Shown here in pieces: positions 30,500 to 50,152 of a DNA stretch of 64,000 nucleotides. Source of the stretch: Candidatus Curtissbacteria bacterium RIFCSPLOWO2_12_FULL_41_16. GTDB taxonomy: Bacteria; Patescibacteriota; Microgenomatia; Curtissbacterales; GWA2-41-24. Below the pieces are notes generated by a model that was not told where the DNA came from, ran no database searches, and saw only the letters and a program-made list of their open reading frames with translations. The stretch spans positions 1,088-65,087 of the forward strand of contig MFBZ01000016.1 of NCBI GenBank assembly GCA_001776545.1, given 5' to 3'. Positions within the stretch are counted from its first letter, which is position 1. Every line of letters begins with the position of its first letter. Position numbers and translations under genes: made by a program.

Positions 30500-33400
30500 G
30501 AGATTGGTCCCTCCTCAAGTTCCATGGGGCTGTCTTTGGTGATTTCTGTCTCACTTGCAACTATTTCGCTCCCCACGATTTCGGCAAATTCTTGGACTTT
30601 CTTGGTTTCTTCCTCGGATTGGGGGATTTCTTCTGTCGCCTCTTTGGTTTTAGCGCCGATTGTTTGAACATTTAAAGATAAACTATTTAATTCTTTAACT
30701 AAGACTTTAAATGATTCCGGTATGAGAGCCTGGGGGATTTCGGTTCCTTTAATAATTGCTTCGAAGGCCTTGGCACGACCTACAATGTCGTCAGATTTGA
30801 TGGTTAGCATTTCCTGTAAGGTGTAAGCTGCGCCATAAGCTTCAAGAGCCCAGACCTCCATTTCGCCAAGACGTTGGCCGCCCATCTGAGCCTTGCCGCC
30901 AAGTGGCTGTTGAGTAATTAGGGAGTAGGGTCCGGTTGAGCGGGCATGAGTTTTATCTTCAACCATATGAATAAGCTTCATAATGTAGGCATTTCCAACA
31001 ACAATTGGTCTATCAAATGGTTGTCCGGTCCGGCCGTCGTAGAGAGTTACGCGACCATCTGTCGGTAGACCTGCTTTTTTAAGCTCAGAGATAATACGTT
31101 CTTCTGAGACATGTTCAAAAACAGGTAGGGCAACTTTATAGCCAAGTTTGGAAGCGGCCCAGCCAAGGTGGGTTTCTAAAAGTTGGCCCAAATTCATACG
31201 GGAAAGAACAGAAAGGGGGCTAATGATAATATCTATTGGCGTACCGTCTGGAAGATAAGGCATGTCGGGCCGCGGGACGATCTTTGAGATAACACCCTTG
31301 TTGCCATGACGACCAGCAAGTTTATCGCCAACAACTACCTTGCGGATTTGGGCAACTTTGACAAAAATCTTGAAAAGGACACCATGCTCCAATTCATCCC
31401 CTTTATCACGAGACAAAATCTTAATGTCGATAACTGTACCTTTTTCCCCGTGGGGCATTCTAAGCGAAGTGTCGCGAACTTCACGAGCCTTTTCTCCAAA
31501 AATTGTTCTCAACAATCTTTCTTCTGCGGTTAATTCGGTTTCGCCCTTGGGTGCAATTTTGCCGACTAAAATATCATTCGGGCCAACTTCGGCACCGATA
31601 ACGACAATGCCTTTTTCATCTAAATTCGCCAAATCTTCTTCTGAAACATTAGGAATGTCGCGGGTTGTTTCTTCTGGTCCCAGCTTGGTTTCAACAACCG
31701 ATGTTTCATACTCTTCGATGTGGATTGAGGTTAAAACATCTTCTCTGGAGAGTCTATCTGAAATGACAATGGCGTCTTCATAACCCAGACCATCAAAACT
31801 CATATAAGCGATTGTTAAATTTTGGCCGATTGCCAATTCGCCATCATCAGTTGCCGAACCGTCGACTAGAACATCTCCCTTTTTGATCTTTTGATTTATT
31901 ACCACCTTGGGTCTTTGTGAGTAACAGGTACTTTGCGGAGATCTGGCAAACTTTTGGGTTGGAATGGTTATTTGGCCGTCTTTCGTTTTTAAAATAAGCT
32001 TTTTGGCATCGACATAGACAACTTCACCATCTTGAGGACTTCTAACAACTCGACCCATATTGGTGGCAACAACTTCTTCCATGCCGGTACCAACTTGCGG
32101 TGCTTGGGGTTTGATTAATGGAACGGCCTGGCACTGCATATGAGTTCCCATTAAAGCACGATTAGCCTCATCATGGGCCAAAAATGGAATAAGCGAGGCT
32201 GAAGTTCCGACAACTTGTCTGGGGATAACATCGATAAAATTGACCGCATCGGTAAGTGCGGTTGTGAATTCGCCTTTATAACGGACAGGGATCCTGTCTG
32301 CTTCCAGATAGCCATTTTTGTCTATTTCGACTTGAGCATGAGTAATGTAATAATCTTCTTCGTCATCTGCCGCAAGATAAACGACTTCGTCGGTCACTTG
32401 GGCTCTACCGTTTTTTGCCTTGACAACTTTTTTATAAGGAGCTTCTAGAAATCCATATTCATTTACACGGCAGTAAAGTGCCATGTAGGTAACAAGGCCA
32501 ATATTTGGGCCTTCTGGTGAACGGACCGGGCAGATCCTGGAGTATTGAGAATGATTAATGTCCCGAATGGAAAAAGCAGCTCTTTCTCTGGCAATGCCGC
32601 CGGTACCCATGACAGTTAACCTTCTGAGGTTATCCAGTTCTGAAAGTGGATTGGTTTGATCTAAAATAGTAGAAAGTTGAGAGGACCGGAAAAATTCATT
32701 GATAGCCGAAATCAATGGTCTGGCGTTGATGAGCGCGGCTGGGGCCGGAACGGTATCTATCGGGGTAAGACTCATTCTTTCTTTGACCACACGTTCCAGT
32801 CTTAAAACTCCGATTCTAAAAGCATTCTGGGCTATGAGTTCACCAACACGTCTCACCCGGCGGTTCCCTAAGTGATCAATGTCATCGACTAGACCATTAC
32901 CTTTTAAAAGCTCGAATAGGTAGGCAATGGCTGCTATAAAATCCGGAGGCGAAAGTACAAGATCTTTTTCATCTTTTTCCCAAGCAAGCTTTTCTTTAAT
33001 TTTTGCGAGGCGTTTTTCAATTTTGTATCTACCAACCTTTCCGAGAGAATATCGTCGAGGATTGAAAAACATATTTTCGACTAAAGCTTTGGCATTGTCT
33101 AAGACCACATGATCACCCGGACGCATTCTGCGATAAATTTCCAAGAGTGCTTCTTCTTGAGTGGTGGTAGTGTCTTTGGCGAGGGTATTTGCGATGAGTT
33201 TTTGCGAAATTTCATCGGTAACATTTTCAAAAAGCCGGTGAATTTGGTCATCTGCAAATCCAACCGCTTTGAGAAATAAAGTAACAGGAAACTTGCGGCG
33301 TCTGTCAATTTTGACCGTGATGATATCGTTTTTGGTGATGGCAAATTCAAGCCATGAACCACGAAGGGGCCTAATTTCACAATTATAAAGATTTTTGCCT

Positions 33401-33837
33401 GTTGTAGGATCAATTTCAGCGGAATAGTAAACTCCAGGAGCACGTACTAATTGAGTAACTACTGCCCGTTCTATCCCATTAATTATAAAGGAGCCTTTTT
33501 CCAGCATTAATGGAAGATCGCATAGGAATACTTCCTGGGTGTTTTTGCCCCCAGTTTGCTTATTGACAACCTGGGCTTCTATCTTGAAGGGGACATCATA
33601 GGTGATGCCTTTCTCAATGGCTTCTTCCGGTGTATGTTTTGCCTTCCCTAAGTTGTAAGCGCCAAACGAAAGTGTAAAGTTTTTACCGGTGAAATCTTCT
33701 ATTGGAAAAACTTCGTCTATAACCTCACGGATTCCTTCCTTTAAAAAGGCATCAAAAGAATCTCTTTGAACTTTTACCAAGTCCAAGGATGGTAAGTTAA
33801 TGTTTGAAGGCTGTTCCCAGGAGATACGTTTTACCAC
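30496..33837 (-). CDS. rpoB: DNA-directed RNA polymerase subunit beta
   Basis: 1113 aa. Rif-region and beta-flap motifs. 4-nt overlap with rpoC. Confidence 0.95.
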   Translation of the reverse strand: MVKRISWEQPSNINLPSLDLVKVQRDSFDAFLKEGIREVIDEVFPIEDFTGKNFTLSFGAYNLGKAKHTPEEAIEKGITYDVPFKIEAQVVNKQTGGKNTQEVFLCDLPLMLEKGSFIINGIERAVVTQLVRAPGVYYSAEIDPTTGKNLYNCEIRPLRGSWLEFAITKNDIITVKIDRRRKFPVTLFLKAVGFADDQIHRLFENVTDEISQKLIANTLAKDTTTTQEEALLEIYRRMRPGDHVVLDNAKALVENMFFNPRRYSLGKVGRYKIEKRLAKIKEKLAWEKDEKDLVLSPPDFIAAIAYLFELLKGNGLVDDIDHLGNRRVRRVGELIAQNAFRIGVLRLERVVKERMSLTPIDTVPAPAALINARPLISAINEFFRSSQLSTILDQTNPLSELDNLRRLTVMGTGGIARERAAFSIRDINHSQYSRICPVRSPEGPNIGLVTYMALYCRVNEYGFLEAPYKKVVKAKNGRAQVTDEVVYLAADDEEDYYITHAQVEIDKNGYLEADRIPVRYKGEFTTALTDAVNFIDVIPRQVVGTSASLIPFLAHDEANRALMGTHMQCQAVPLIKPQAPQVGTGMEEVVATNMGRVVRSPQDGEVVYVDAKKLILKTKDGQITIPTQKFARSPQSTCYSQRPKVVINQKIKKGDVLVDGSATDDGELAIGQNLTIAYMSFDGLGYEDAIVISDRLSREDVLTSIHIEEYETSVVETKLGPEETTRDIPNVSEEDLANLDEKGIVVIGAEVGPNDILVGKIAPKGETELTAEERLLRTIFGEKAREVRDTSLRMPHGEKGTVIDIKILSRDKGDELEHGVLFKIFVKVAQIRKVVVGDKLAGRHGNKGVISKIVPRPDMPYLPDGTPIDIIISPLSVLSRMNLGQLLETHLGWAASKLGYKVALPVFEHVSEERIISELKKAGLPTDGRVTLYDGRTGQPFDRPIVVGNAYIMKLIHMVEDKTHARSTGPYSLITQQPLGGKAQMGGQRLGEMEVWALEAYGAAYTLQEMLTIKSDDIVGRAKAFEAIIKGTEIPQALIPESFKVLVKELNSLSLNVQTIGAKTKEATEEIPQSEEETKKVQEFAEIVGSEIVASETEITKDSPMELEEGPIS

Positions 33838-34104: not shown

Positions 34105-35106
34105 CTAGAGAAACTCTTGAATATTTTTGTTATGTTCCTCGATGGTTTTGGCAAAATGAATTTTACCTTCTTTGTCATGGAGGTAATAAAGGTAGTCTGT
34201 TTGAGTTGGGGTTGCTGCTGAGCGAATTGATTCAAGACCTGGATTGGCAATAGGAGCCGGTGGCAGGCCGGGGTTTAGGTAGGTGTTGTAGGCTGATTTG
34301 ACGCTTCGATAGTCTTCCTGAGTAATGGACGGCCACCAGCTGCTGTTGGCAACATCATAACCTTTGGCGTATTGAACAGTGGCGTCTACCTGGAGGGCAA
34401 GACCAGTGTTTAATCTATTAATTAAAATTCCGGCGATAATTGGTCTTTCTTCGTTTGTTTTAGCTTCTCTTTCAATCAGTGATGCCAGAATTATGACTTC
34501 TTCTTCTTTAAGGTTATTTTTGCTACCGGCTGAGGTGATTTTTTTATCGACCTTATCTTCGAAAGTTTTTCTAAGGCGCTGAACGATATCTTGGGATGAG
34601 GCATCGCGTGCGATAAGATAGGTGTCCGGAAACATGTAACCCTCGAGGGCTATTTTTATGAACTCGTTTTTATCGAACTGGTATTTATCGTTGGTCGCGG
34701 TTTTAAGCTTGACCTCGATTAGCTGGGCCATTTCTTCGATTCTGGTACCCTCTGGAAAAGTAATCCAGACGTCGATTGCTCCATGAGTTAAGAATTCGGC
34801 TATTTCCCGTGCTGAAAGATGGGGAGAAAGACGAAAGTCACCCGCCTGGATATTTTTAGCAATACCTGTTTGAGCAACGAATAGCCTGAAGGCAAGGGCA
34901 TTCTTGATGAGTTTGGTACTTTCAAGATTTTTGGCGATTCGGGCGACTGGTTGACCGGGTTTAATGACAAAAATTTGGAAAGATTCCATATTTGAGATTG
35001 GTCGGAGTAAATAATTGTAATACTGGTTCAAACCAATCGGTGCTGAAATCAAAATGATAAAGATTATGAGAAAAATTAAAGATCTCGGTTTCTTTGTCAC
35101 TCTCAA
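34105..35106 (-). CDS. mltG: endolytic murein transglycosylase MltG (YceG-like)
   Basis: N-terminal TM anchor and a YceG domain (LASLIEREA...GILINRL..G..LQ.DATV.YA). Confidence 0.85.
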   Translation of the reverse strand: MRVTKKPRSLIFLIIFIILISAPIGLNQYYNYLLRPISNMESFQIFVIKPGQPVARIAKNLESTKLIKNALAFRLFVAQTGIAKNIQAGDFRLSPHLSAREIAEFLTHGAIDVWITFPEGTRIEEMAQLIEVKLKTATNDKYQFDKNEFIKIALEGYMFPDTYLIARDASSQDIVQRLRKTFEDKVDKKITSAGSKNNLKEEEVIILASLIEREAKTNEERPIIAGILINRLNTGLALQVDATVQYAKGYDVANSSWWPSITQEDYRSVKSAYNTYLNPGLPPAPIANPGLESIRSAATPTQTDYLYYLHDKEGKIHFAKTIEEHNKNIQEFL

Positions 35107-35303
35107 CCCTCCGCGAAAGTTGCTCTGTGGTATTTACCTTTTCTTTTATCGAAAATAAATATACGTCCGCAAGTGCAGATGACTTTTTGACTATTGTCTT
35201 GTTTTTCTATTCTGCGCCCCAAAGATAAATTACGGCCGCAACCGACACACTTTCCCTGAAGAAGAATCCAAGCCTGAACCGGGGCGATGATTTTTTTGAT
35301 CAT
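35103..35303 (-). CDS. small C4 zinc-ribbon protein
   Basis: 66 aa with CVGCG...CTCG. Overlaps ruvX and mltG by 4 nt each. Confidence 0.5.
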   Translation of the reverse strand: MIKKIIAPVQAWILLQGKCVGCGRNLSLGRRIEKQDNSQKVICTCGRIFIFDKRKGKYHRATFAEG

Positions 35304-35683
35304 TGTGAATCGAGATAACTTTGCAAAATAATGGCAGCTGCCACTTCGTGTTCTTTTTGACGACGACGCATCTTTGGTACTTGAAGTTTAATCATAGTTT
35401 GAGTTGCCTGTCCAGTAGTCAAAGTTTCATCCCACAAGATGATTTTTAAATCGGGTTTTTGCTTATGGAGTTTTTTGGCAAAACCTTCAAATAGAGTTTT
35501 TATTTTTCCTTCAACGCAACCGATAACAACAGTGGCGATTCCCTCCAATTCAATAGTTTGAACTATTGAATTGACAGCCTGATCAATATTTTTGTGGGTG
35601 ATTGTGGCATACGGTGATGCCAGTTGACCGGCTGAGATAGCCACACCGGTTGTTTTTCGACCAAGATCAATACCTAAATACAT
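35300..35683 (-). CDS. ruvX: putative pre-16S rRNA nuclease / Holliday junction resolvase-like RuvX (YqgF)
   Basis: MYLGIDLGRKTTGVAIS RNase H-like N-terminus. 127 aa. Confidence 0.85.
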   Translation of the reverse strand: MYLGIDLGRKTTGVAISAGQLASPYATITHKNIDQAVNSIVQTIELEGIATVVIGCVEGKIKTLFEGFAKKLHKQKPDLKIILWDETLTTGQATQTMIKLQVPKMRRRQKEHEVAAAIILQSYLDSQ

Positions 35684-35731: not shown

Positions 35732-36541
35732 CTAGTCACTGCTTGCTCCCCCATCAATCACCAGTTGTGTGCCGGTGATATAGGAAGCTTCATCAGACGC
35801 TAGGAAAAGTGCGCCATACGCCACCTCCCGGGGTGTACCTATACGCTTTAAAAGGGCCGCATCGCCGAATTGCTTGTAAGCCCTTTTAGGATCGAGCCCT
35901 AGAAATTTAGCGTGGCGTTCGGTGATCTGCGTCTTGATTGTGCCAGGGCAAATGGCGTTGACACGAATATTGTCTGGCGCCAAATCCATGGCAAGACAAC
36001 GTGTCATCTCCAAGACGGCGGCTTTGGAAGCATTGTAGGGAACAAATGCTGGCTGGGCAATGAAAGAACTAACCGATGCAAGGTTTACGATGGCTCCGCC
36101 GCCAGCTTCGCGCATAAAAGGAAGTATCTCTTTCACGCAATTTGCATAGCCGATAACATTGACCTCAAATACTTTGTGCCAGTCTTCTTGGCTTACATCC
36201 TCAACTTTACCGAAAATAAAAGCAACTGCATTATTTACCAGAATGTTGACTGCGCCAAATTTTTCGACAGCCGTGGCAACCGTTGACTTGACGTCATCAG
36301 GTTTGGTGACATCACAACAAACAAAAACGGCTTGACCATCACCATCTGTAATCTCTTTTGCTGTCTCTAAACCATTTTTCTCGTCAATGTCGGCAATAAG
36401 TACGCTGGCGCCTTCCTCGGCAAATAATTGCGCTATGGCACAACCGATGCCGTTGGCGGCACCGGTTACAATCGCTGATTTGCCTTGCAGTCTGGCAAAC
36501 TCTTTTGGTTTAATCCGTTCCATTTTATTGTGGCTCATCAT
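35732..36541 (-). CDS. SDR-family short-chain dehydrogenase/reductase
   Basis: TGAANGIGCAIA Rossmann motif, NNAV, catalytic YNASKAAV. Confidence 0.85.
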   Translation of the reverse strand: MMSHNKMERIKPKEFARLQGKSAIVTGAANGIGCAIAQLFAEEGASVLIADIDEKNGLETAKEITDGDGQAVFVCCDVTKPDDVKSTVATAVEKFGAVNILVNNAVAFIFGKVEDVSQEDWHKVFEVNVIGYANCVKEILPFMREAGGGAIVNLASVSSFIAQPAFVPYNASKAAVLEMTRCLAMDLAPDNIRVNAICPGTIKTQITERHAKFLGLDPKRAYKQFGDAALLKRIGTPREVAYGALFLASDEASYITGTQLVIDGGASSD

Positions 36542-36573
36542 AGGTCATTTACTTTCTGCTGTCAAAACGTAGT

Positions 36574-37386
36574 TCATATCAAACTGGTAACAACCACCAG
36601 ACGTTTAAGATTTGTTCCGGGGGGCACGCAAGTCATTAGAGTCAGGTTACGACCGGCTGGCGAAATCGGGTTAATGACAGACGTGTCGCGCGGGTCAACA
36701 ACTCTTAAATACTGAACTGTGAAATGGAGTTTTTGACCTTCAATTTCTACAAAAACATCATCCCCTACCTCCAGATCGGAAAGTTTGGTGAAAATTGCCC
36801 GATAATTTTTAGGATCGTTAAATTGAGGCAGAACCGAGTGGCCAGTGATAAAGCTATTGCCGATTTCGCCGGGAAGAGCGGATCCGGGGAAATGGGCAAG
36901 ACTCTTGTAAAAGTCTAGGCTATCGACTTTAACTTTGGCTCTTGCGATTTTGAGTCTGGGAATTGTCAGGGAAAACTCGCTAGGTTTATTTTCTAATCTA
37001 TAATTTTGGACAAGTGAAGAAGATTCAGAAGCTTCTTCTTTTGAAAAAGTAGTCGGAATGAAATAAGAGGGCTTGTTTCCCTCCTCCTCTTTTGAAAAAG
37101 TAGTCGGAATGAAATAAGAAAATCCATCTGGGTCTTGAATTACTTGGATGCTTGCGGAAAGAGTAGATTTTGATGAAAGCACCTGAGCCTTAGGTATAGG
37201 AAAATCATTAACACCTCCAGACAATCTTGGTCGGGTCACCGTCTGCCAGACGAAATACGGCCAAATGGCAAAAATTACTGAAGTTAAACCTATAATGGTG
37301 ATAAGCCCAAAAAAGACCCGATCGCGACGTTTGGCGACCTGTATTTTGTCGAAAGTATTTTCCTTGACATAAACTGCAAGGGGCAT
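36574..37386 (-). CDS. sortase-family transpeptidase with N-terminal TM anchor and internal 17-aa tandem repeat
   Basis: ITGHSV (His), LTLMTC (TLxTC Cys) and a downstream Arg in NLKRLVV. N-terminal TM helix. Linker repeat SYFIPTTFSKEE x2. Confidence 0.75.
   Translation of the reverse strand: MPLAVYVKENTFDKIQVAKRRDRVFFGLITIIGLTSVIFAIWPYFVWQTVTRPRLSGGVNDFPIPKAQVLSSKSTLSASIQVIQDPDGFSYFIPTTFSKEEEGNKPSYFIPTTFSKEEASESSSLVQNYRLENKPSEFSLTIPRLKIARAKVKVDSLDFYKSLAHFPGSALPGEIGNSFITGHSVLPQFNDPKNYRAIFTKLSDLEVGDDVFVEIEGQKLHFTVQYLRVVDPRDTSVINPISPAGRNLTLMTCVPPGTNLKRLVVVTSLI
37038..37119. repeat. 51-nt tandem duplication inside the sortase gene
   Basis: cttttgaaaaagtagtcggaatgaaataaga occurs twice 51 nt apart, encoding two copies of SYFIPTTFSKEE(E/A). 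Confidence 0.8.
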
Positions 37387-37429
37387 TCTAAAATTAAAAG
37401 TTAACTAAGTTGGCTGCTATCATTTTGAA

Positions 37430-39631
37430 TTATTCTTGACTTGCCTCTATTTTAAAGGTGATTTTTGATTTGTTACGCGGAATCGAACCGGCCAAAGGCA
37501 AACTCGGTGAAAATCTTACTTGAACATCAGAAATTTCTGGTGTTGTTTTGATAATCGTTCTTGTTTCTTTTAGATTTTTGCCGGCAATTTTGGCGGCCAG
37601 TTCGTCTTCATTAAATTTTGGGATTAAGTTTGCCTGATACCTTCCGGAAAGTTCGATGGTATCATTGAGGCGTTTAACCGTTATATCGACAATTTCAATA
37701 TCGTCGGCTCTGGCTTCCAAGTTTGCCGGGATATCACTTTGGGCATCTTGCGCCAGGTGGTTTTTAAGATCACTTTCTTTGTAAACAACCACGCGCGCCT
37801 CGATTTCCATGTTTAGATTAATCAGGGAGGCTTCTTCGTCTTGTTTTTTGTCGAATTCTTTTTCGAGAATTTTAATGATGGTGGTCTCGTTGTGGAATTT
37901 TTGTCCGGAAATTTTTTCTTTGAGATCAGCTTTGGCTTTTTCCGTTAATGAGTCGATGAGAGACTTTTCTAACTTATCTAAGTCTTGCCGGGCGACTACG
38001 GTGACCTGCTTCTCGCTGCCACCGGAAAATGGTGTGTCATTATGTGCCCAATAAGCATATTCATCAAATTGAGCAAAAGAGAAGTCTTGTTCTGTGTCTA
38101 TATTATATTGCGGTCCTGCTTCACTGGCTGTGACGCGTGTTTTTGTCTGACTTGGTTGTCCAGGTTTACCAGCTGAGGTAGCCTCCACCTCTTCGTCTAA
38201 AACAAACTTGAGTCCACTTTTGGTAATTATTGTTGTATCTTTTGGAAAACTCTTAGGAGTAGACGTGATATTAAAAATTGTCACTTCACCGCCGGCTTTC
38301 TCCCCCAATTTTTTAGTACCAGTGGCTATGGCCTTTTGGGAACCGCTCATTTTGGTAGTAATTTCTTGGCCTATTATTTGGGAGCTTTCTGTCTGTCTTA
38401 AAACAACATCGGCTTTGAAATTTTTCTCTAAAGTTTTAGCGTTCACTTTAATAATCACTTGCGCGGAAGTTAAGGTTTGAGATGCTATAAAGCTTCCGAG
38501 AAAACCGATTATCACAAGCCCTGCTACAGCAACGGCAATTTTTTTGACTGAAGGCCTTTTTTTAAAAATTGCCAAGACTCGCGATAACCAAGCGCCGGTT
38601 GCGATATCTCCTAAAGTTTCTTTGTAATTTTGGGCGGGGGCAGTATCGGGCGTTTGGTTTACTTCGACTGCATAATCTTCTTTGTCTGGTTTGTCTTTTT
38701 CTTGTTTTGCTAAAACATGTTTTGGCAAGTCTGGTTGTAAACTTTTGACTGCGGAATCCGATGTCTCGTGTCTTTCTAATTCTTCTTGTTGCTTGGTAAG
38801 TAAAATGTCCTCTCCCTCAACAAAACCAAACTCATTAATTTTTTCTATTTTTGATTTGACAGGGCTTGGGTAATGACCTTTGGTGATTTCCAATAACGTA
38901 GGGTCATGGCCAAGAATATCTGCTGCCTGAGCATAGGCAACGGACTTTGCCAGTTGGTTGGCGTCTAAAATCATAATTTTGGGTTCGTGAATAAATAGAT
39001 CTTTCCAATCCGCTTTAATGATTTTGTCAGTAAACCCTGGGTCCTTGATTCCATAAACAATAAAGCGTGAGGGAAGATTTTCCACTTCATCCTTGAGGCG
39101 ACTTATCAGATTTTCAATTTTATCGATGGTAATTTTCTCCTTGGAAGTATAAGTGGCGATCACTTTATTGTTTTTAATTATGTGAACCTCGCAAAAATCA
39201 TTAAAAACCCCAATCAAAACAGCGTGTGGTGTTGCCGATTCTTCTATTTTTAATAAATGATTGATTGCCGCTGCCAACGGTATAAAAGCCTGTGGTGAAA
39301 GTTCCAAGTCACTGGCTAAATTCTTGATAATCTTTGAAACTTCGCGGGAAGGCTGGTTATCTTCAAGATAGAAATTGGAGAGCCCGAATACTATTTTTGT
39401 AACATCGCTTTTAGCATTTTGCGCTGCAGTATCGATAGCAATTGTAGCCTGATGACGTAGACTATTTATATCGGTAATGGACTTTTGGCCAAATCCAAGA
39501 AATTCTACTTGGTCAAAATTTAGGACCCAAATACAAGCCACTACTCTATCTGGAGTGACTACAAGCGAAAGATAATTTTGTCCCGGTGAATCTTTTTTAA
39601 GAATCTTTGTGAATATATTCAAAGGTCCCAT
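37430..39631 (-). CDS. large membrane protein: degenerate FtsA/PilM-like actin-fold N-terminal domain + single TM + ~350-aa extracytoplasmic domain
   Basis: 733 aa. The N-terminal 330 aa follow the FtsA/PilM pattern (YLSLVVTPDRVV...; HAVLIGVFNDFCEVHI...) but have DIGT/DIGGGST-like phosphate motifs replaced. TM helix AVAVAGLVIIGFLGSFIA at about residue 360. Confidence 0.5.
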   Translation of the reverse strand: MGPLNIFTKILKKDSPGQNYLSLVVTPDRVVACIWVLNFDQVEFLGFGQKSITDINSLRHQATIAIDTAAQNAKSDVTKIVFGLSNFYLEDNQPSREVSKIIKNLASDLELSPQAFIPLAAAINHLLKIEESATPHAVLIGVFNDFCEVHIIKNNKVIATYTSKEKITIDKIENLISRLKDEVENLPSRFIVYGIKDPGFTDKIIKADWKDLFIHEPKIMILDANQLAKSVAYAQAADILGHDPTLLEITKGHYPSPVKSKIEKINEFGFVEGEDILLTKQQEELERHETSDSAVKSLQPDLPKHVLAKQEKDKPDKEDYAVEVNQTPDTAPAQNYKETLGDIATGAWLSRVLAIFKKRPSVKKIAVAVAGLVIIGFLGSFIASQTLTSAQVIIKVNAKTLEKNFKADVVLRQTESSQIIGQEITTKMSGSQKAIATGTKKLGEKAGGEVTIFNITSTPKSFPKDTTIITKSGLKFVLDEEVEATSAGKPGQPSQTKTRVTASEAGPQYNIDTEQDFSFAQFDEYAYWAHNDTPFSGGSEKQVTVVARQDLDKLEKSLIDSLTEKAKADLKEKISGQKFHNETTIIKILEKEFDKKQDEEASLINLNMEIEARVVVYKESDLKNHLAQDAQSDIPANLEARADDIEIVDITVKRLNDTIELSGRYQANLIPKFNEDELAAKIAGKNLKETRTIIKTTPEISDVQVRFSPSLPLAGSIPRNKSKITFKIEASQE

Positions 39632-39675
39632 GAAGTGTAGCCCAATTATATCAGCTAAAAATTTTATTCGGAAGA

Positions 39676-40287
39676 TTACTCTCGTGGCTCACTGGTGGCT
39701 TCACGCGTTGATTCCCTGAGAATTTGAGGAAGATCGGCAAAACCGCCTCTTGTTCTTTTGGGAAGAGGCGGAGGTTCTTCAATCTGTGGTTGGCTTGTTT
39801 CTGATTTAACAGTCTCTTTTGGCGTTTTTTTGCCCAGTACCAAAAACCAACCGGCTGCGGCAATTGCCGCGACGAGAATTAAAACACCAATAATTATGAC
39901 AATTAGCCTTAGTTTTTTAATTTGCGAATGCTCTTCGGGTGCCGGACTTTGGTCAGGTGGTGCAGCGTAGGGTGTTGGGTTTGGTTGTTCTCCCATTACA
40001 GGGAACTTGGGTGGAAAATTTTGGGCGGGGGGAGCAGGCTCATTTGACGGAGGAGTCGGTGGTGGTGAGATGCTAGGTATCGGGGGAACCGATGGAAGTG
40101 GTGGTGTGGTGATGGTGGAGCTTGCCGCATTTTCTTCTTGAGTTGTTACAAATTGTCCTGGCTCAATAGGAGTTGGTGAGGCGTCATTCGGATTTGTATT
40201 GGAAGAGTCCGATGTAGGCGGTGAAGATAATCCGATTGGAGATTTAGAATCTTGAACTATTGAATTATTCTTGGGGGCAGTATCCAT
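39676..40287 (-). CDS. Pro-rich single-pass membrane protein
   Basis: 203 aa. N-terminal half about 30% Pro, a TM helix LIVIIIGVLILVAAIAAAGWFLVL, then a short C-terminal tail. Confidence 0.6.
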   Translation of the reverse strand: MDTAPKNNSIVQDSKSPIGLSSPPTSDSSNTNPNDASPTPIEPGQFVTTQEENAASSTITTPPLPSVPPIPSISPPPTPPSNEPAPPAQNFPPKFPVMGEQPNPTPYAAPPDQSPAPEEHSQIKKLRLIVIIIGVLILVAAIAAAGWFLVLGKKTPKETVKSETSQPQIEEPPPLPKRTRGGFADLPQILRESTREATSEPRE

Positions 40288-40311: not shown

Positions 40312-42081
40312 TTACTCCTCAATTGTAGCATAGATTCTCCTGAGGTCAGAACCGGCGGATTCTTCTTTGGTGATTTTAAAATGGCCAAGAACGCCGGTAG
40401 ATTTGGCATGCGGTCCACCACAAAATTCTTTAGAATAGGCTTCTTCGATTTTAGTGGATGGGCCAATAAAATAAATATTGACCAAATCTCCGTATTTTTC
40501 TTCAAAAAGTCCGACGGCGCCAATTTTATTTGCTTCTTCTTTAGGCATAACCCTTTGATTAACCATAAGATTATCTCTGATCTTTTGGTTAACGATTGCT
40601 TCGGTCTGTTTTATTTGCTCTGGTGTCGTTTTGGCATGATGCGAAAAGTCGAATCTCAATCTTTCTTCGGTAATGTGAGAGCCGGTTTGGTGGACATGCT
40701 TGCCTAAAACATCACGGAGTGCTTGATGTAAAAGATGGGTAGCAGTATGAAGTTTGGCTGCTTTTTCCGTTTGGACTGTCAATCCCCCTTTGGTTTTTTC
40801 ACCGGCTTTCCTAGAGAGTTCTTGATGGGCTTTAAGTTCTTTTTCAAACCCCGCGAGGTCGACTTGTTTACTTTTCTCAGTCGCTAACTCGATTGTTAGT
40901 TCTATGGGAAAACCATAGTTTTGATAGAGATCGAATGCATCATGACCAGAAATATCTCCGGTAATTTTTTCAAATTGTCTGATACCTGATGAGAGTGCTT
41001 TTTTAAATTTATCTTCTTCTTTTTTAAGGGTTTCAATGATCAAGTTTTGAGACTCATATAGATTAGGATAGAGATCACCATAGGTTTTGATGACAATTTT
41101 GGCTAAATCTTCCAAGAAGTCTTCCTCGATTTTTAACAAAGAAGCATGTCGAATCGCACGTCTGACAAGTCGACGAAGGACATATCCTCTCTCGACATTT
41201 GATGGGAAAACACCGTCTGATATCAAAAAAACTGACGAGCGAATATGGTCGGCCACGATTCTTGTGGATTTAACATCGAGGTAACTGGCGAGATCCTCGA
41301 TTCTTTTGGCAAGTGGTAGAAAAACATCGGTTTCATAAATTGAGAGAGCATTTCCCAAAACTGCCAGCATGCGTTCCAAGCCCATACCGGTGTCAACATT
41401 TTTTTGTTTAAGAGGTTTGAAGCTACCGTCATTTTGCTTGTCATATTGCATAAAGACGTCGTTCCAAATTTCAATGAAGCGATTTGAATCACTCGTTTTT
41501 TCAACCTGCCCTGAATCGTTCGGACTGACGTCATAAAACATCTCAGTGTCAGGACCACAGGGACCGGTTGGGCCTACCGGACCCCACCAATTTTCTTGTT
41601 TGCCATATTTGAAAATGTGATTCTCTGGTAAGCCAAGTTTCCTCCAGATATCGTAGGATTCTTGGTCAAAAGGGGCATCGGCGTCTCCAGCAAAAACCGA
41701 AACATAGATTCTTTTGGCATCGAGTTTTAAAACATCAATTAAAAATTGATAAGACCAAGAAATCGCCTCTTCTCTCCAGTACCCGCCCAAAGACCAGTTG
41801 CCAAGCATTTCGAAAAATGTGTTGTGGACGCTGTCCCCTACCTGATCGATATCATCGGTGCGCAGACACTTTTGGACGTTAACGAGCCGTTTGCCTTCTG
41901 GGTGGGATTCACCCAGCAGATAGGGCACCAGTGGGTGCATGCCGGCAGTGGTAAATAAAACTCTTTTAGTACCGGTAAGTTCGACGGACTCTGACGGAAC
42001 AAGAGATGCAGAAGGAATAATCTTGTGTCCCCTATCTTCAAAAAATTTCAAAAACTTTTGGCGAAGGTCTGAAGAGTTCAT
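40312..42081 (-). CDS. alaS: alanine--tRNA ligase, short form (catalytic + tRNA-binding + editing domains; no C-terminal oligomerisation domain)
   Basis: Class II motifs (FTTAGMHP, GNWSLGGYW), editing-domain HxxxH...H (HTATHLLHQALRDVLGKHVHQTGSH), C-terminal CGGPH. 589 aa. Confidence 0.9.
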   Translation of the reverse strand: MNSSDLRQKFLKFFEDRGHKIIPSASLVPSESVELTGTKRVLFTTAGMHPLVPYLLGESHPEGKRLVNVQKCLRTDDIDQVGDSVHNTFFEMLGNWSLGGYWREEAISWSYQFLIDVLKLDAKRIYVSVFAGDADAPFDQESYDIWRKLGLPENHIFKYGKQENWWGPVGPTGPCGPDTEMFYDVSPNDSGQVEKTSDSNRFIEIWNDVFMQYDKQNDGSFKPLKQKNVDTGMGLERMLAVLGNALSIYETDVFLPLAKRIEDLASYLDVKSTRIVADHIRSSVFLISDGVFPSNVERGYVLRRLVRRAIRHASLLKIEEDFLEDLAKIVIKTYGDLYPNLYESQNLIIETLKKEEDKFKKALSSGIRQFEKITGDISGHDAFDLYQNYGFPIELTIELATEKSKQVDLAGFEKELKAHQELSRKAGEKTKGGLTVQTEKAAKLHTATHLLHQALRDVLGKHVHQTGSHITEERLRFDFSHHAKTTPEQIKQTEAIVNQKIRDNLMVNQRVMPKEEANKIGAVGLFEEKYGDLVNIYFIGPSTKIEEAYSKEFCGGPHAKSTGVLGHFKITKEESAGSDLRRIYATIEE

Positions 42082-42165: not shown

Positions 42166-42528
42166 CTAACTTTCCTGGCGCGTATGACTGCGCCGGAAGA
42201 AGAAGCGGCGGCCTTTTTTTTGGATTTCTTCGATGTGCTCAGGTATTTGCGCGGTTGCTTCCTGAACATTTTCCTTGATATTTTGAACGGCATGGGCGCT
42301 TTCGGCTAATTTTTCTTTAATTCCTTCTTTATGCTTGTCGATTTTTTCTTCTGCTGATTCTTTTGTTTCTTCTAATGCTTCAGCCATTTTCCCGATAAGC
42401 TTTTGGCTTTCTTTTAAAAGCTCCTCTTTGAGTTTTTGGCCGCTTTTGGTGCCAAAAAGATAAACAAGAGCAGCGCCTACGATAACGCCAAAAAGAAATG
42501 AGGAATTGCCGTTTTTTTGATCGTTCAT
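42166..42528 (-). CDS. YtxH-like membrane-anchored coiled-coil protein
   Basis: N-terminal GVIVGAALVYLFGTKSGQKLKEEL (YtxH signature) then coiled coil. Confidence 0.6.
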   Translation of the reverse strand: MNDQKNGNSSFLFGVIVGAALVYLFGTKSGQKLKEELLKESQKLIGKMAEALEETKESAEEKIDKHKEGIKEKLAESAHAVQNIKENVQEATAQIPEHIEEIQKKGRRFFFRRSHTRQES

Positions 42529-44457: not shown

Positions 44458-45402
44458 GAAATTCTAAGTTTTCAAAACCCTAACTCCGTTAATTTGCCCG
44501 AGTAATACTTCAAACATTGGCTCGTTTCTGTGATTAAAGCGAAATCCATACTCATCAACATAAGCCTGTAAATACTTTTTGCTAACAACCCGATAGACTC
44601 CTGTTACCCCTCTCTTGAAATGACTCCAAAAGTTCTCGATTCCTTGCGTATGCACTTCGCCTCGTACTGATTCCAACCTGTGATTTACTGATTCGTGGTA
44701 GTAGCCAAACTTCGGCAAGTGATAGTAACCTGCAAATTCGTCTGTAAAAACCCTTGCTGTCGGGTCAACATTCTCTTTTATCTGTTGTAGTAATGTCCAC
44801 TTACCAGTATTAGGAATGTGTTTTAAATATACTTTCCCGCCTCTTTTTAACATACCCATTACTATTTCCTTATCGGTTGAACCAATACCATATTTATTCT
44901 TGCGGTTGCTTGTCTTACCACCTACAAATGTTTCGTCAACTTCTACAATGCCGTCCAGCAAGCCATCTTTTGGCTCTGCCATTAACATTCTGATCTGTTT
45001 AAACATTCTCCACGCCGTCTTATATGAAACTGCAAGCTCACGCTGTAATTGCTTTGCTGATACGCCTGATCGGGTATTAGACATTACAAACATAGCGTAG
45101 AACCAATACTGCAAGGGTGTTGTGGTTTTTTCAAAGATAGTTCCTGCAAGCGGTGCTATTTGATAACCGCAGGAGCATTGATAAACCATTCTGCCTTTTA
45201 TTTTGTAGAAGTTGGATATTTGCTCGAAGTATTTACATTTCTTGTTCTGGCATTTAGCACCTTTTGGATACTTAATCTTAAATATCTCAGCAAGACACGA
45301 TTCATCATCTTTATACTTTCGCAAGAATGTTGCGAGGCTAAATTGATTTTTCATAGCCTCAGTATAGCACACTAATTACCTGTTGTCAAGGGATAAGTGC
45401 CG
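44440..45402 (-). mobile_element. IS1595-family insertion sequence (ends approximate)
   Basis: A single transposase gene filling about 0.9 kb between the toxin cassette and the rodZ-like gene. I could not define terminal inverted repeats by eye. Confidence 0.5.
44464..45354 (-). CDS. IS1595-family transposase (N-terminal Zn ribbon + DDE domain)
   Basis: MKNQFSLATFLRKYKDDESCLAEIFKIKYP...C..C.. ribbon and an ISXO2-like DDE core. Start trimmed to MKNQFSL. Confidence 0.85.
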   Translation of the reverse strand: MKNQFSLATFLRKYKDDESCLAEIFKIKYPKGAKCQNKKCKYFEQISNFYKIKGRMVYQCSCGYQIAPLAGTIFEKTTTPLQYWFYAMFVMSNTRSGVSAKQLQRELAVSYKTAWRMFKQIRMLMAEPKDGLLDGIVEVDETFVGGKTSNRKNKYGIGSTDKEIVMGMLKRGGKVYLKHIPNTGKWTLLQQIKENVDPTARVFTDEFAGYYHLPKFGYYHESVNHRLESVRGEVHTQGIENFWSHFKRGVTGVYRVVSKKYLQAYVDEYGFRFNHRNEPMFEVLLGQINGVRVLKT

Positions 45403-45404
45403 GA

Positions 45405-46031
45405 CTAGCGGGTCAGGCGAATGATTTTGGTGACTTTGGTTTTTGGAGAAAGACGTTTGGAAGCAATAATTTCAATGATGTTTTGGCCGTCTTTAAGCTT
45501 GTGCTCATAAGAAAAATTGCCCTGGGGATCAACCGGGACGAACTGACCATTAATGGCGAGTTGTGATTCTTTTTCTGTTTGGCCTGAAATAACAACGATC
45601 GGTACTGAGGTAGTGAAATCATCGGGAGGACTTGCGACTTTGAGTTCGGGGGCAGAAAGTATCGAGAGATATTGAATTACCAAATAAGCAATAAAGATAA
45701 TAACGGCTACTGTAAAAGTTGAGTTAATAATTTTTGTGGTAGTTGGCATCAGGCCTTTTTTGTATTGCCTGATCGGCGGTTTTTGCGGGTATTTAGCCTC
45801 ATCGTATTCTCTTCTAAAAAGGGCCAGGGCATGTTTTTCGTCAAGGCCTAAATAGGTAGAGTAATTTTTGATGAAACCGCGAATAAAGGCTGATTCAGGA
45901 AGAACCGACCAGTCGGATTCTTCTAAGGCTTGCAGGTGTTGTTTTTTAATAGATAACTGGCGAGCTGCTCTTTTTAGTGGAATTCTTTTGGCTTTCCTTT
46001 GTGAAGATAGAAGCTCGCCTAATGTTGCCAT
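45405..46031 (-). CDS. rodZ: RodZ-like cytoskeleton protein (N-terminal HTH, TM, C-terminal DUF4115-like domain)
   Basis: HTH segment LGELLSSQRKAKRIPLKRAARQLSIKKQHLQALEE...FIRGFIKNYSTYLGLD, then a TM helix VAVIIFIAYLVIQYL. Confidence 0.6.
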   Translation of the reverse strand: MATLGELLSSQRKAKRIPLKRAARQLSIKKQHLQALEESDWSVLPESAFIRGFIKNYSTYLGLDEKHALALFRREYDEAKYPQKPPIRQYKKGLMPTTTKIINSTFTVAVIIFIAYLVIQYLSILSAPELKVASPPDDFTTSVPIVVISGQTEKESQLAINGQFVPVDPQGNFSYEHKLKDGQNIIEIIASKRLSPKTKVTKIIRLTR

Positions 46032-49336: not shown

Positions 49337-50152
49337 TTAATTTGAATTTAAAGAAGCAACTAGATTAGGATTATCTCTCAGTTTATCTTTTAACCGGTAG
49401 GACTCTCCTTCTATTTTAATTATTGTAGCGTGATGATGCAGTCGATCGAGAATCGCTGCTGCTCTTTGTTGGCTGCCAAAAAGCCTCCCCCACTCCTCGA
49501 AAGATCTATTAGAAGCAAAGATAACTGAACCGGTTTCGTATCTTTGGTGCAGTAGCTTGAAAAGAAAAGTCGCTGCATTGGTACTTGTTTCATACAAATC
49601 CATTTCATCCAGTATTAAAAGATCTGGCCGCAGGAGTGAGGTGAAGAGATAATGGCGTTCTTCGGCACTAGCTTTTCTCTCGACTAGTTCTACTAGTTGG
49701 TCGAGGGTTAAAAATTTTACATCATGACCACTATAAATTGCTTCATAGCCAAGTGCCACACTAAGGTGAGTCTTACCTACTCCCGGAGGACCCATAAAAA
49801 CAACGTCTTCTGTTTTATCAATGTACTGGCAAGAAGCTAAATCGCTAATTTGTGTTTCGTCAACCGTGGGCTGAAAGGTAAAATCAAATTCTTTTAGAGT
49901 TCTCTTAAACGGAAAGCCGGCCTTTTGAATCCAGCGCTGCAAACGGCTGTCCTCTCTTAAAGTGAACTCTTTTTCAAGCAGCCCTTCTAAAAAATCGTGC
50001 GGAGTTTTTTTGTTTTTGATACACTCTTGCGCAGTTCTATCAAAGGATGAACTCATTCCATCAAGGCCAAGTTCTTTCAATGCTTGACTAATTCTTTCGT
50101 TCTGTTTTAGAGAGCTAGATATTTTATAAATTCTAACTTTCGACTTTGCCAT
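49337..50152 (-). CDS. istB: IS21-family helper ATPase IstB
   Basis: DnaC-like AAA: GPPGVGKTH Walker A, LILDEMD Walker B. Confidence 0.9.
   Translation of the reverse strand: MAKSKVRIYKISSSLKQNERISQALKELGLDGMSSSFDRTAQECIKNKKTPHDFLEGLLEKEFTLREDSRLQRWIQKAGFPFKRTLKEFDFTFQPTVDETQISDLASCQYIDKTEDVVFMGPPGVGKTHLSVALGYEAIYSGHDVKFLTLDQLVELVERKASAEERHYLFTSLLRPDLLILDEMDLYETSTNAATFLFKLLHQRYETGSVIFASNRSFEEWGRLFGSQQRAAAILDRLHHHATIIKIEGESYRLKDKLRDNPNLVASLNSN

What the first reader, a model, noticed from the sequence alone, without database searches (positions are those of the whole stretch)
36574..40287. Sortase operon with a degenerate FtsA/PilM-like membrane fusion protein and a Pro-rich membrane protein
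What the sequence shows: there are four co-directional genes.
- A Pro-rich single-pass protein.
- A 733-aa protein whose cytoplasmic N-terminus has the FtsA/PilM actin-like fold pattern but with phosphate-binding motifs replaced (likely non-catalytic). It is followed by a TM helix and a ~350-aa outside domain.
- A membrane-anchored sortase (TLMTC, GHS) with a recent 51-nt tandem duplication in its linker.
- An SDR oxidoreductase.
None of the neighbours carries an LPxTG-like sorting signal, so the sortase substrate is elsewhere.

Inference: the locus may be a cell-envelope or pilus-like assembly module specific to this lineage (PilM-N/O-like fusion plus sortase).
Basis: partly seen in the sequence, partly recalled or inferred. 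Interest (0 to 1): 0.6.

Follow-up and report, generated by a model that had tools for sequence, protein, structure and literature searches.

The report
Degenerate FtsA-like membrane fusion plus sortase
In this Curtissbacteria (CPR) genome, a cell-division-type actin-like protein that has lost its ATP site is fused through a membrane helix to a wall-side domain and is always followed by a sortase gene. This is an uncharacterised, widespread envelope module that most likely belongs to cell-wall or division machinery, not to a pilus.

Summary
On the minus strand lie a Pro-rich single-pass protein (39676-40287), a 733-aa protein (37430-39631), a membrane-anchored sortase (36574-37386) carrying a 51-nt-period duplication, and an SDR (35732-36541).

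Synteny changes the interpretation. In Saccharibacteria and other CPR, an intact FtsA-like gene (417-445 aa) sits directly upstream of a separate membrane protein with the same outside domain, usually inside alaS-ruvX-mltG. In Microgenomates the two are fused and degenerate, and all 29 fused loci have the sortase immediately downstream. The N-domain family has 1341 clusters.

The Pro-rich gene was found only in the Curtissbacteria-type loci. The SDR is an insertion seen only in this population. No sorting-signal substrate or pilus gene lies nearby.

Best reading: a nucleotide-blind transmembrane scaffold derived from FtsA and its partner, serving wall or division machinery. The fold, homology and synteny are shown; the function is inferred.

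The parts
39676..40287 (-). Pro-rich single-pass membrane protein (203 aa). Short conserved motifs: MDPTAP, PIxPGQFV (aa 40-49), QPxPTPY (aa 101-110), TM aa 126-151, and EEPxPxPKRTxGGFxDLP (aa 169-190). Found only in the Curtissbacteria-type loci.
   Evidence: ORF. Alignment of 17 orthologues, 15-25% Pro. Present in L001, L002, L009-L013 and L016-L025, and absent from L003 and L027-L034, where alaS abuts the fused gene. No family match above cutoff.
37430..39631 (-). 733-aa fused bitopic protein: cytoplasmic degenerate FtsA-like domain, acidic linker, TM helix, wall-side domain.
   Evidence: ORF. 107 homologues, mostly Candidatus Curtissbacteria. N-domain family of 1341 clusters, the listed ones mostly 700-820 aa. 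Exact protein is OGD92550.1 and siblings, named 'hypothetical' or 'Baseplate protein J-like domain-containing protein'.
38897..39577 (-). Actin-like (ASKHA) core, aa 19-245. Only subdomains 1A and 2A are present. The motif sites read NYLSLVVTPDRVV (phosphate-1), VLIGVFNDFCEVHII (phosphate-2) and RFIVYGIKDPGF (adenosine).
38798..38833 (-). Conserved short motif EFGFVEGEDILL (aa 267-278) between the actin-like core and the acidic linker. F270 and D275 are invariant.
   Evidence: Invariant columns. Present in all fused forms. Low pLDDT, so probably an interaction peptide; this is inference.
38477..38596 (-). Juxtamembrane segment GAWLSRVLAIFKKRPSVKK (aa 346-364) followed by the TM helix (aa 365-385). 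The basic residues on the N-side put the N-terminus in the cytoplasm.
   Evidence: Hydropathy; coordinates. Topology is inferred from the positive-inside rule.
37433..38473 (-). Wall-side domain, aa 387-733. It contains beta-hairpins, a beta-barrel shared with baseplate-J and GlxA (about aa 436-540, 38012-38326), a long helix and two alpha/beta modules.
36574..37386 (-). Membrane-anchored sortase (270 aa): TM aa 24-47, conserved linker motif DPDGFSYF (aa 85-92), His in TGHS (aa 181-184), Cys in TLMTC (aa 249-253), Arg in KRL (aa 261-263).
   Evidence: Pfam Sortase 8.8e-21. Class C, D, E and F models all fall far below their cutoffs. 29 orthologues aligned; in loci of other lineages the gene starts within 0-140 nt of the end of the fused gene's tblastn match.
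37034..37119 (-). Direct repeat of period 51 nt in the sortase linker: 35-nt copies at 37034-37068 and 37085-37119 with one mismatch. They encode SYFIPTTFSKEE twice.
   Evidence: Single copy in the closest orthologue L010 (FSYFIPTTFSKE) and unique among 29 orthologues. The 270-aa form is the only member of its 90% cluster and occurs on 29 contigs, so no copy-number variants were seen.
35732..36541 (-). SDR oxidoreductase. A population-specific insertion between the sortase and ruvX, not part of the conserved module.
   Evidence: adh_short_C2 2.3e-71. No SDR match in any of the 34 loci of other lineages. Present in the same place on contigs of this population in three sources. GC 0.479 against 0.39-0.43 for most neighbouring genes. 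A promoter-like site matching 11 of 12 positions at 36565-36537.
34105..35683 (-). Conserved downstream genes: ruvX (35300-35683), a 66-aa Zn-ribbon ORF (35103-35303) and mltG/yceG (34105-35106). Their start and stop codons overlap.
   Evidence: Pfam RuvX 4.1e-26 and YceG 1.1e-79. Conserved order in the related loci.
40312..42081 (-). alaS (589 aa), the conserved upstream gene, 24 nt from the Pro-rich gene.
   Evidence: Pfam tRNA-synt_2c 2e-138. Synteny.

Best explanation
The 733-aa protein is a fused and stripped-down descendant of a gene pair that is conserved across CPR bacteria. The pair is an FtsA-like actin-fold protein and, directly downstream, a bitopic membrane protein with a ~350-aa wall-side domain.

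In Microgenomates, including this Curtissbacteria genome, three things have happened:
- The two genes have become one polypeptide.
- The actin-like part has lost subdomains 1C and 2B and all three nucleotide-binding motifs, so it can no longer work as an ATPase.
- A divergent membrane-anchored sortase gene has been placed immediately downstream.

I infer that the protein is a passive transmembrane scaffold. Its cytoplasmic pseudo-actin domain and conserved peptide motifs would take positional information from division or elongation proteins. In Curtissbacteria these may include the Pro-rich neighbour. Its wall-side domain would place envelope enzymes at sites of new wall synthesis: the co-transcribed sortase and the operon's MltG glycan-strand terminase. 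The sortase would be a housekeeping type whose substrates are encoded elsewhere.

The fold, the homology, the fusion, the motif loss and the synteny are shown. The scaffold function and the partners are inferred.
For: Fold:
- AlphaFold2 N-domain pLDDT 84, with twice the order beta-beta-beta-alpha-beta-alpha-beta-alpha.

Homology to intact FtsA-like genes:
- hhalign E 6e-4, spanning 1-228 of the window domain against 1-384 of the intact protein.
- Shared N-terminal K-rich peptide followed by YLSL, and a shared W-x-(K)-x-LPF-x-x-x-PK motif that reads DWKDLFIHEPKI in the window protein.
- The intact proteins score 90-115 bits on TIGR01174 ftsA against 31-46 bits on pilM. They end in an amphipathic tail such as FRDKIDKMLSV.

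Motif and subdomain loss is seen in every fused form examined.

Gene-fusion (Rosetta-stone) evidence and positional orthology:
- Separate FtsA-like gene plus partner, then ruvX-mltG, in L006, L007, L008 and L038, with alaS upstream in three of these.
- A separate pair also in other genomic contexts, L004 and L039.
- Fused gene between alaS and mltG in L001-L003 and L009-L034.
- The partner's outside domain is homologous to that of the window protein, hhalign probability 99.1.

Sortase linkage:
- All 29 fused loci of other lineages have the sortase directly downstream, often with touching or overlapping codons, at 27-59% identity.

Envelope and division context:
- mltG in the same gene string; FtsK and a RodZ-like HTH_25 protein a few kb away.
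- A LysM-CHAP hydrolase after mltG in Saccharibacteria.

No adjacent substrate in the window or in the 37 related loci scanned.
Against: - There is no experimental or localisation evidence. Function rests on fold and gene neighbourhood only.
- alaS-ruvX-mltG is a housekeeping string, so neighbourhood with mltG may say little.
- With 1C and 2B missing, the surfaces FtsA uses for FtsN and FtsZ (established knowledge of E. coli FtsA) are gone, so a link to the Z-ring is not evident.
- I could not determine whether these genomes also have a canonical ftsA next to ftsZ. The FtsA-like parent may therefore be a paralogue with a different job.
- hhalign probability for the N-domain against the intact FtsA-like protein is only 28.8%. 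Homology rests on structure, position and shared motifs together.
- The sortase is absent from the unfused loci, so it is an add-on, not a core partner.
Confidence: 0.45

Rival explanations
1. The fused protein is a dedicated sortase accessory with no link to division. It would hold the sortase in a membrane complex and present substrate or lipid II to it. The FtsA-like ancestry would be historical only.
For: Strict adjacency of the sortase to the fused gene in all 29 fused loci, with near-zero intergenic distance. Fusion, degeneration and sortase acquisition coincide phylogenetically.
Against: The same outside domain and an actin-like partner exist in many CPR with no sortase nearby, so the core function predates the sortase. 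No substrate is co-encoded.
Confidence: 0.17
2. It is the alignment or platform subunit of a pilus or secretion machine, equivalent to a PilM-PilN fusion or to GspL.
Confidence: 0.08
3. The outside domain is a surface-exposed adhesion or host-contact module, for example for episymbiotic attachment. It would have been recruited from a phage baseplate-type protein and be anchored by a cytoplasmic pseudo-actin.
For: The baseplate-J/GlxA-type barrel is shared with phage tail baseplates. CPR bacteria are largely episymbionts (papers).
Against: Only one barrel of about 100-140 residues is shared. No other tail or contractile-injection gene is nearby. The window protein matches no PHROG family. The outside domain shows moderate, even conservation (A3 mean column identity 56%) and a fixed housekeeping position, which is unlike typical fast-evolving host-contact proteins.
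Confidence: 0.08
4. There is no functional module. The genes simply share a housekeeping transcription unit, and their adjacency reflects genome compaction.
For: The surrounding genes (alaS, ruvX, rpoB) are functionally unrelated to each other. An unrelated SDR has inserted at the same spot.
Against: The actin-like gene and the membrane partner stay together even when they have moved to a different genomic context (L004 and L039), and they have fused. The sortase keeps its position directly after the fused gene down to 27% identity.
Confidence: 0.12

Closest known systems
FtsA (bacterial cell-division actin homologue; TIGR01174, PF14450)
   Different: Subdomains 1C and 2B and all three nucleotide motifs are missing. 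The domain is anchored by a real TM helix and continues into a 347-aa outside domain. It gets no score on any FtsA model. The gene is not next to ftsZ; it lies between alaS and ruvX-mltG.
GspL (type II secretion) and the PilM-PilN pair (type IV pili)
Baseplate J / gp47 / wedge proteins of contractile tails, and the GlxA beta-barrel domain (PF04865, PF21110)
   Different: Only one subdomain matches (TM-score about 0.25). The protein is membrane-anchored and cellular, sits in a housekeeping operon, and has no tail or injection-system neighbours. The window protein itself does not reach the Pfam threshold.
Housekeeping sortases (class A and class E)
   Same: Membrane-anchored, with a His-Cys-Arg triad and no substrate gene adjacent.
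   Different: It scores far below the cutoff of every class model: 59 bits on class C and 55 on class E, against 160. It has its own conserved linker motif DxDGFSYF. It is fixed downstream of the fused FtsA-like gene across Microgenomates. Its recognition motif is unknown.

Membership tests
FtsA | Actin-like fold with subdomains 1A, 1C, 2A and 2B | tested here: not met
   The 1A and 2A core is present. The roughly 90-aa 1C and 50-aa 2B inserts seen in the intact CPR relatives are absent.
FtsA | Nucleotide-binding motifs: phosphate-1 DxG, phosphate-2 DxGGGT, adenosine GGG | tested here: not met
   The window protein reads LVVTPDR, GVFNDFCE and YGIKD where the relatives read LDIGTEF, DVGGGTTD and CGGGS.
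FtsA | Scores above the family model cutoff (TIGR01174 175.85 bits; PF14450 31.8 bits) | tested here: not met
   The window protein has no FtsA hit in Pfam or NCBIfam. The unfused relatives reach 90-115 bits on TIGR01174, also below cutoff, but pass PF14450.
FtsA | Binds the FtsZ C-terminal peptide and sits in the divisome | not testable with these tools
   No ftsZ in the window or the loci.
PilM / PilM-PilN (type IV pilus alignment complex) | Encoded with pilN/pilO and pilus genes; the partner has a PilN-type periplasmic domain | tested here: not met
   No pilus genes in the annotated parts of the window or in the related loci. The outside domain has no PilN or PilO match. pilM model scores for the relatives are only 31-46 bits against a cutoff of 133.
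GspL-like fusion | Nucleotide-free actin-like cytoplasmic domain, TM helix, periplasmic ferredoxin-like domain, within a type II secretion operon | tested here: not met
   The first two features are met. The outside fold and the operon context are not. It works like GspL in architecture only.
Baseplate_J (PF04865) | Full-length match to the baseplate wedge protein, encoded in a tail or injection-system gene cluster | tested here: not met
   The window protein has no hit. 27 of 38 homologues have weak partial hits. Only the barrel aligns structurally. No tail genes nearby, and no PHROG hit.
Sortase (PF04203) | Sortase fold with the catalytic His, Cys and Arg | tested here: met
   74.4 bits against a cutoff of 26.6. 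TGHS, TLMTC and KRL are conserved in 29 orthologues.
Sortase class C (pilus-polymerising) | Scores above the class model cutoff and is encoded with LPXTG pilin substrates | tested here: not met
   59.1 bits against a cutoff of 160. No sorting-signal ORFs in the window or the 37 loci scanned.
Sortase class A/E (housekeeping) | Scores above the class model cutoff; cleaves LPXTG or LAXTG substrates encoded elsewhere in the genome | tested here: inconclusive
   Class E scores 54.7 bits against a cutoff of 160, and no class A model was among the matches. Substrates elsewhere in the genome could not be searched.
SDR oxidoreductase | Rossmann-fold short-chain dehydrogenase domain above cutoff | tested here: met
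   adh_short_C2 240.5 bits. NF005559 (glucose 1-dehydrogenase subfamily) 272 bits against a cutoff of 215.

The most novel reading that the evidence does not exclude
In Microgenomates, the FtsA-like gene between alaS and ruvX is the only FtsA descendant. It would have become a nucleotide-blind, non-polymerising pseudo-actin welded to a wall-side domain. Division-site wall remodelling and sortase-mediated surface-protein anchoring would then be organised by a passive transmembrane scaffold, with FtsZ tethered by something else. This would be a previously undescribed divisome design in a large uncultivated bacterial class. Its unfused form, FtsA-like protein plus a 'baseplate-J-like' partner, would be a CPR-wide divisome pair.
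Probability: 0.15. Interest if true: 0.8.

Novelty: new variant of a known kind. Interest (0 to 1): 0.52.

Why it matters
CPR/Patescibacteria make up a large share of bacterial diversity, and almost nothing is known about how they divide or build their envelope. This locus shows a conserved gene pair, an FtsA-like protein plus a bitopic partner, that databases label only 'hypothetical' or 'baseplate J-like'.

The pair comes in two natural states. It is separate and apparently ATP-competent in Saccharibacteria, some of which are cultivable and genetically tractable. It is fused and nucleotide-dead, with a sortase attached, in Microgenomates. That contrast makes the partnership directly testable.

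If the pair belongs to the divisome or elongasome, it would add a CPR-specific component and an example of an actin-fold ATPase turning into a structural pseudo-enzyme. It also corrects a misleading phage-type annotation.

Tried and rejected
- Pfam, NCBIfam, PADLOC and PHROGs scans of the 733-aa and Pro-rich proteins gave nothing above threshold. The weak hits to DUF4179 and FliL fall on TM or low-complexity regions and were ignored.
- The N-domain profile against PDB sequences gave no hit. Only structure comparison worked.
- Tandem Repeats Finder missed the sortase duplication; the repeat finder found it.
- The LPLAG string near the C-terminus of the 733-aa protein (aa 711-715) was considered as a sorting motif and rejected. 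It is not conserved (consensus NLPxxSS), lies in a confidently folded part of the model and has no hydrophobic tail after it.
- The GGFxDLPxAT motif in the Pro-rich orthologues was considered as a sortase site. It is unlikely: the window copy reads LPQIL, no membrane anchor follows it, and the gene is missing from other sortase-bearing lineages.
- Phage or defence origin was rejected (no tail genes).
- The recently described Pam pilus of CPR (bioRxiv 10.64898/2026.03.03.709456) is a chaperone-usher-like system with unrelated genes.
- The search for related loci with the full-length alignment failed because no stretch was conserved enough. The C-domain alignment worked.
- The afdb50 fold library was unavailable.
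- Literature searches found no paper on this family.
- The promoter and terminator scan was not above the shuffled background, so operon boundaries rest on gene spacing only.


Full report
**What is there.** The region holds a tight string of minus-strand genes. In order they are:
- alaS (40312-42081)
- a 203-aa Pro-rich protein (39676-40287)
- a 733-aa protein (37430-39631)
- a 270-aa sortase (36574-37386)
- a 269-aa SDR (35732-36541)
- ruvX (35300-35683)
- a 66-aa Zn-ribbon ORF (35103-35303)
- mltG/yceG (34105-35106)
- rpoB (30496-33837)

Gaps between genes are 24-48 nt or 4-nt overlaps. Pfam confirms the sortase (8.8e-21), SDR (2.3e-71), RuvX, YceG and AlaRS. An exact-sequence look-up shows that the window belongs to Candidatus Curtissbacteria MAGs from the Rifle aquifer. 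The proteins are OGD92549-92551 and siblings. The 733-aa protein is labelled 'hypothetical' or 'Baseplate protein J-like domain-containing protein'.

**The sortase and its repeat.** The enzyme has an N-terminal TM helix (aa 24-47) and the catalytic elements TGHS, TLMTC and KRL. None of the NCBIfam class models comes near its cutoff; the best is class C at 59 bits against 160. Two 35-nt copies, 97% identical, lie 51 nt apart at 37034-37068 and 37085-37119. They encode SYFIPTTFSKEE twice. Among 29 orthologous sortases this is the only one with the duplication. The closest orthologue, L010, has a single FSYFIPTTFSKE. The 270-aa form is the only member of its 90% cluster and is seen on 29 contigs from several sources, so no copy-number polymorphism is visible. 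The repeat lies in a linker whose length varies among orthologues, which range from 238 to 270 aa. I see no reason to give it a function.

An alignment with intact relatives (see the synteny paragraph) shows three losses:
- The ~90-aa insert at the position of FtsA subdomain 1C is missing.
- The ~50-aa insert at the position of subdomain 2B is missing.
- The nucleotide motifs LDIGTEF, DVGGGTTD and CGGGS are replaced by LVVTPDR, GVFNDFCE and YGIKD.

The same losses occur in every fused homologue examined. The domain is therefore almost certainly not an ATPase; this is an inference from the motifs.

**The 733-aa protein, the rest.** After the core come four segments:
- a conserved peptide, EFGFVEGEDILL (aa 267-278)
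- an acidic low-complexity linker
- a juxtamembrane segment ending in KKRPSVKK
- one TM helix (aa 365-385)

The basic N-side flank puts the actin-like domain in the cytoplasm and aa 387-733 outside. The outside domain models well (pLDDT 90). Its only recognisable piece is a beta-barrel at about aa 436-540:
- A profile search of PDB sequences hits the diffocin baseplate protein TRI-2 (E 9e-4) and Mu gp47.
- 27 of 38 homologues, but not the window protein, give weak Baseplate_J hits.
- Foldseek TM-scores are about 0.25.

A long helix and two alpha/beta modules follow and have no convincing counterpart. There is no PilN, PilO or GspL/M match. The 'PilM-N/O-like fusion' idea therefore holds for the architecture only.

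**Synteny is the key result.** At 52% identity, loci L001/L002 have alaS, a Pro-rich gene, a 734-aa gene, sortase, ruvX, a Zn-ribbon ORF, mltG and rpoB. There is no SDR. A scan of one genome per species returned 26 loci, L009-L034. These comprise Curtissbacteria and more distant relatives, one of them titled Levyibacteriota. All have alaS, the fused gene, the sortase directly downstream and mltG wherever the contig extends far enough. Sortase identity falls to 27% in the most distant loci. L003 shows the same arrangement.

Other points from these loci:
- The Pro-rich gene is present in L001/L002 and in most of L009-L026, and is absent from L003 and L027-L034.
- None of the 34 loci of other lineages contains the SDR.
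- In this population the SDR is present at the same place on contigs read from NCBI, ENA and JGI, so it is real and not an assembly artefact.
- The SDR has a higher GC content (0.479) than most neighbouring genes (0.39-0.43) and a promoter-like site matching 11 of 12 positions just upstream.
- The spot between the sortase and ruvX also holds 0.7-1.7 kb of other DNA in several relatives.

The SDR is a local insertion, not part of a module.

**The unfused form.** A profile of the outside domain finds 540-630-aa proteins across Patescibacteria, including Saccharibacteria. In L006, L007, L008 and L038 the gene order is: a 430-445-aa FtsA-like gene, then this membrane protein, then ruvX, mltG, a LysM-CHAP hydrolase and obg. 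In three of these loci alaS lies upstream. None has a sortase. In L004/L005 and in the most divergent case, L039, the pair sits in other genomic contexts, yet an FtsA-like gene is still immediately upstream. It is a 417-aa gene in L004. In L039 it is a 395-aa gene with hhalign probability 82%.

The separate actin-like proteins have these properties:
- They score 90-115 bits on the ftsA equivalog model, against 31-46 bits on pilM.
- They pass Pfam FtsA.
- Those of L004, L006, L007 and L008 carry intact nucleotide motifs and both inserts.
- Those of L006, L007 and L008 end in an amphipathic tail, as FtsA does.
- They form a family of more than 6700 sequences, mostly annotated as FtsA or 'FtsA domain-containing'.

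Their partners carry a conserved ~90-aa cytoplasmic N-domain, an acidic linker, a TM helix and the outside domain. The partners' outside domain is homologous to that of the window protein (hhalign probability 99.1).

The window's N-domain aligns to the L004 FtsA-like protein end to end (hhalign E 6e-4). The fused and separate forms also share an N-terminal K-rich peptide followed by YLSL, and a tryptophan-containing motif before the last strand. That motif reads PWSKSLPFLHLPQI in the more distant fused forms, PWLKSLPFAQFPKI in L004 and DWKDLFIHEPKI in the window protein. Structure, position and these motifs together make the fused N-domain a degenerate descendant of this FtsA-like family. The fused family is large: 1341 clusters at 50% identity, and the listed ones are mostly 700-820 aa.

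**What it most likely does.**
- Shown: an actin-like protein and a bitopic envelope protein are kept together across CPR, even when they move. They have fused in one class, with loss of everything needed for ATP turnover and of the two subdomains that FtsA uses for partner binding. In that class a sortase is fixed directly downstream.
- Context: the pair usually sits with mltG, a wall glycan-strand terminase. In Saccharibacteria a LysM-CHAP hydrolase follows. In Curtissbacteria the locus lies a few kb from ftsK and a RodZ-like gene.
- Absent: no pilus, secretion, phage-tail or defence gene was seen nearby, and no protein with a C-terminal sorting signal.
- Inferred: the protein is a passive transmembrane scaffold of the wall-growth or division machinery. 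It would position the sortase, and perhaps MltG, at sites of new wall synthesis. The sortase would be a housekeeping type with substrates encoded elsewhere. The Pro-rich neighbour, with its short conserved motifs separated by disordered proline-rich stretches, is a plausible cytoplasmic adaptor in Curtissbacteria.

I put this reading at about 0.45. The rivals are a dedicated sortase accessory, a pilus platform, a surface adhesion module, and no functional link at all. They are listed with their tests in the rival explanations.

**Comparison with known systems.**
- It works like GspL, or like PilM fused to PilN, in architecture. It fails membership on outside fold and on context.
- It is derived from an FtsA-like protein but fails FtsA membership on subdomains, motifs and model score.
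- It is not a baseplate protein.
- The sortase is a true sortase of no defined class.

No paper describing the family was found. I rate it a new variant of a known kind: an actin-fold cytoplasmic module coupled to a bitopic envelope protein.

**Main open point.** I could not check whether these genomes also carry a canonical ftsA next to ftsZ. If they do not, Microgenomates would run division with a nucleotide-dead FtsA remnant, which would be far more interesting.

Noticed in passing
window 35732-36541 (and 36537-36565): The SDR gene is an insertion seen only in this population, between the sortase and ruvX. It is absent from 34 loci of other lineages. Its GC is 0.479 against 0.39-0.43 for most neighbouring genes. 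A promoter-like site (TTGACA-17-TATGAT, 11 of 12) lies just upstream and overlaps the annotated ATG, so the real start is probably Met7 (263 aa), as in the NCBI record. The same intergenic spot holds 0.7-1.7 kb of other DNA in several relatives.
   Followed up: partly
window 44464-45372 and 49337-51335: Mobile elements lie among housekeeping genes of a small CPR genome: an IS1595-type transposase (DDE_Tnp_IS1595, 8.5e-38) and an IS21-type pair (IstA-like rve integrase 50133-51335; IstB 49337-50152, 5.7e-72).
   Followed up: no
window 35103-35303: A 66-aa CxxC...CxC Zn-ribbon ORF sits between ruvX and mltG with 4-nt start/stop overlaps on both sides. It is 70-85% identical across the Curtissbacteria-type loci and about 51% identical in L033. 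It has only a sub-threshold Pfam hit to the prepilin-peptidase N-terminal Zn-binding domain (E 0.005).
   Followed up: no
window 39676-40287; loci L001, L009-L025: The Pro-rich protein is a string of short conserved motifs in disordered proline-rich sequence: MDPTAP, PIQPGQFVV, QPDPTPY, a TM helix, then EEPxPxPKRTxGGF[GA]DLPxAT. The last motif resembles a sortase-type LPxxT string in most orthologues, but in the window copy it reads LPQIL, and no membrane anchor follows it.
   Followed up: partly
[not shown]
   Followed up: no
window 45405-46031, 46038-48152, 42166-42528: Envelope and division genes cluster just upstream of alaS: a RodZ-like protein (HTH_25 plus Glucodextran_B domain), FtsK and a YtxH-like protein. 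The same set is next to the module in L001 and L003.
   Followed up: partly
L039 2352-3539: In the most divergent member of the family, the upstream actin-like gene keeps phosphate-1 (YDIGSS) but has a degenerate phosphate-2 (DIRGELTE). Loss of the nucleotide site may therefore have happened more than once.
   Followed up: no
window 40312-42081: AlaRS is only 589 aa, with the catalytic core and the tRNA_SAD domain and nothing beyond. Orthologues in the related loci are 595-630 aa. This is much shorter than the usual bacterial ~870 aa (that figure is from memory).
   Followed up: no
window 52310-53344 and 56120-57043: Two sizeable ORFs (344 and 307 aa) among housekeeping genes have no Pfam match at E <= 0.001.
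   Followed up: no
loci L010, L014, L015, L021, L026-L030, L033, L034: The public record titles call these MAGs 'uncultured Gammaproteobacteria', yet their gene content and 44-59% identity (for L010-L026) to Curtissbacteria proteins place them in Microgenomates. The titles look like placeholder mislabels.
   Followed up: no
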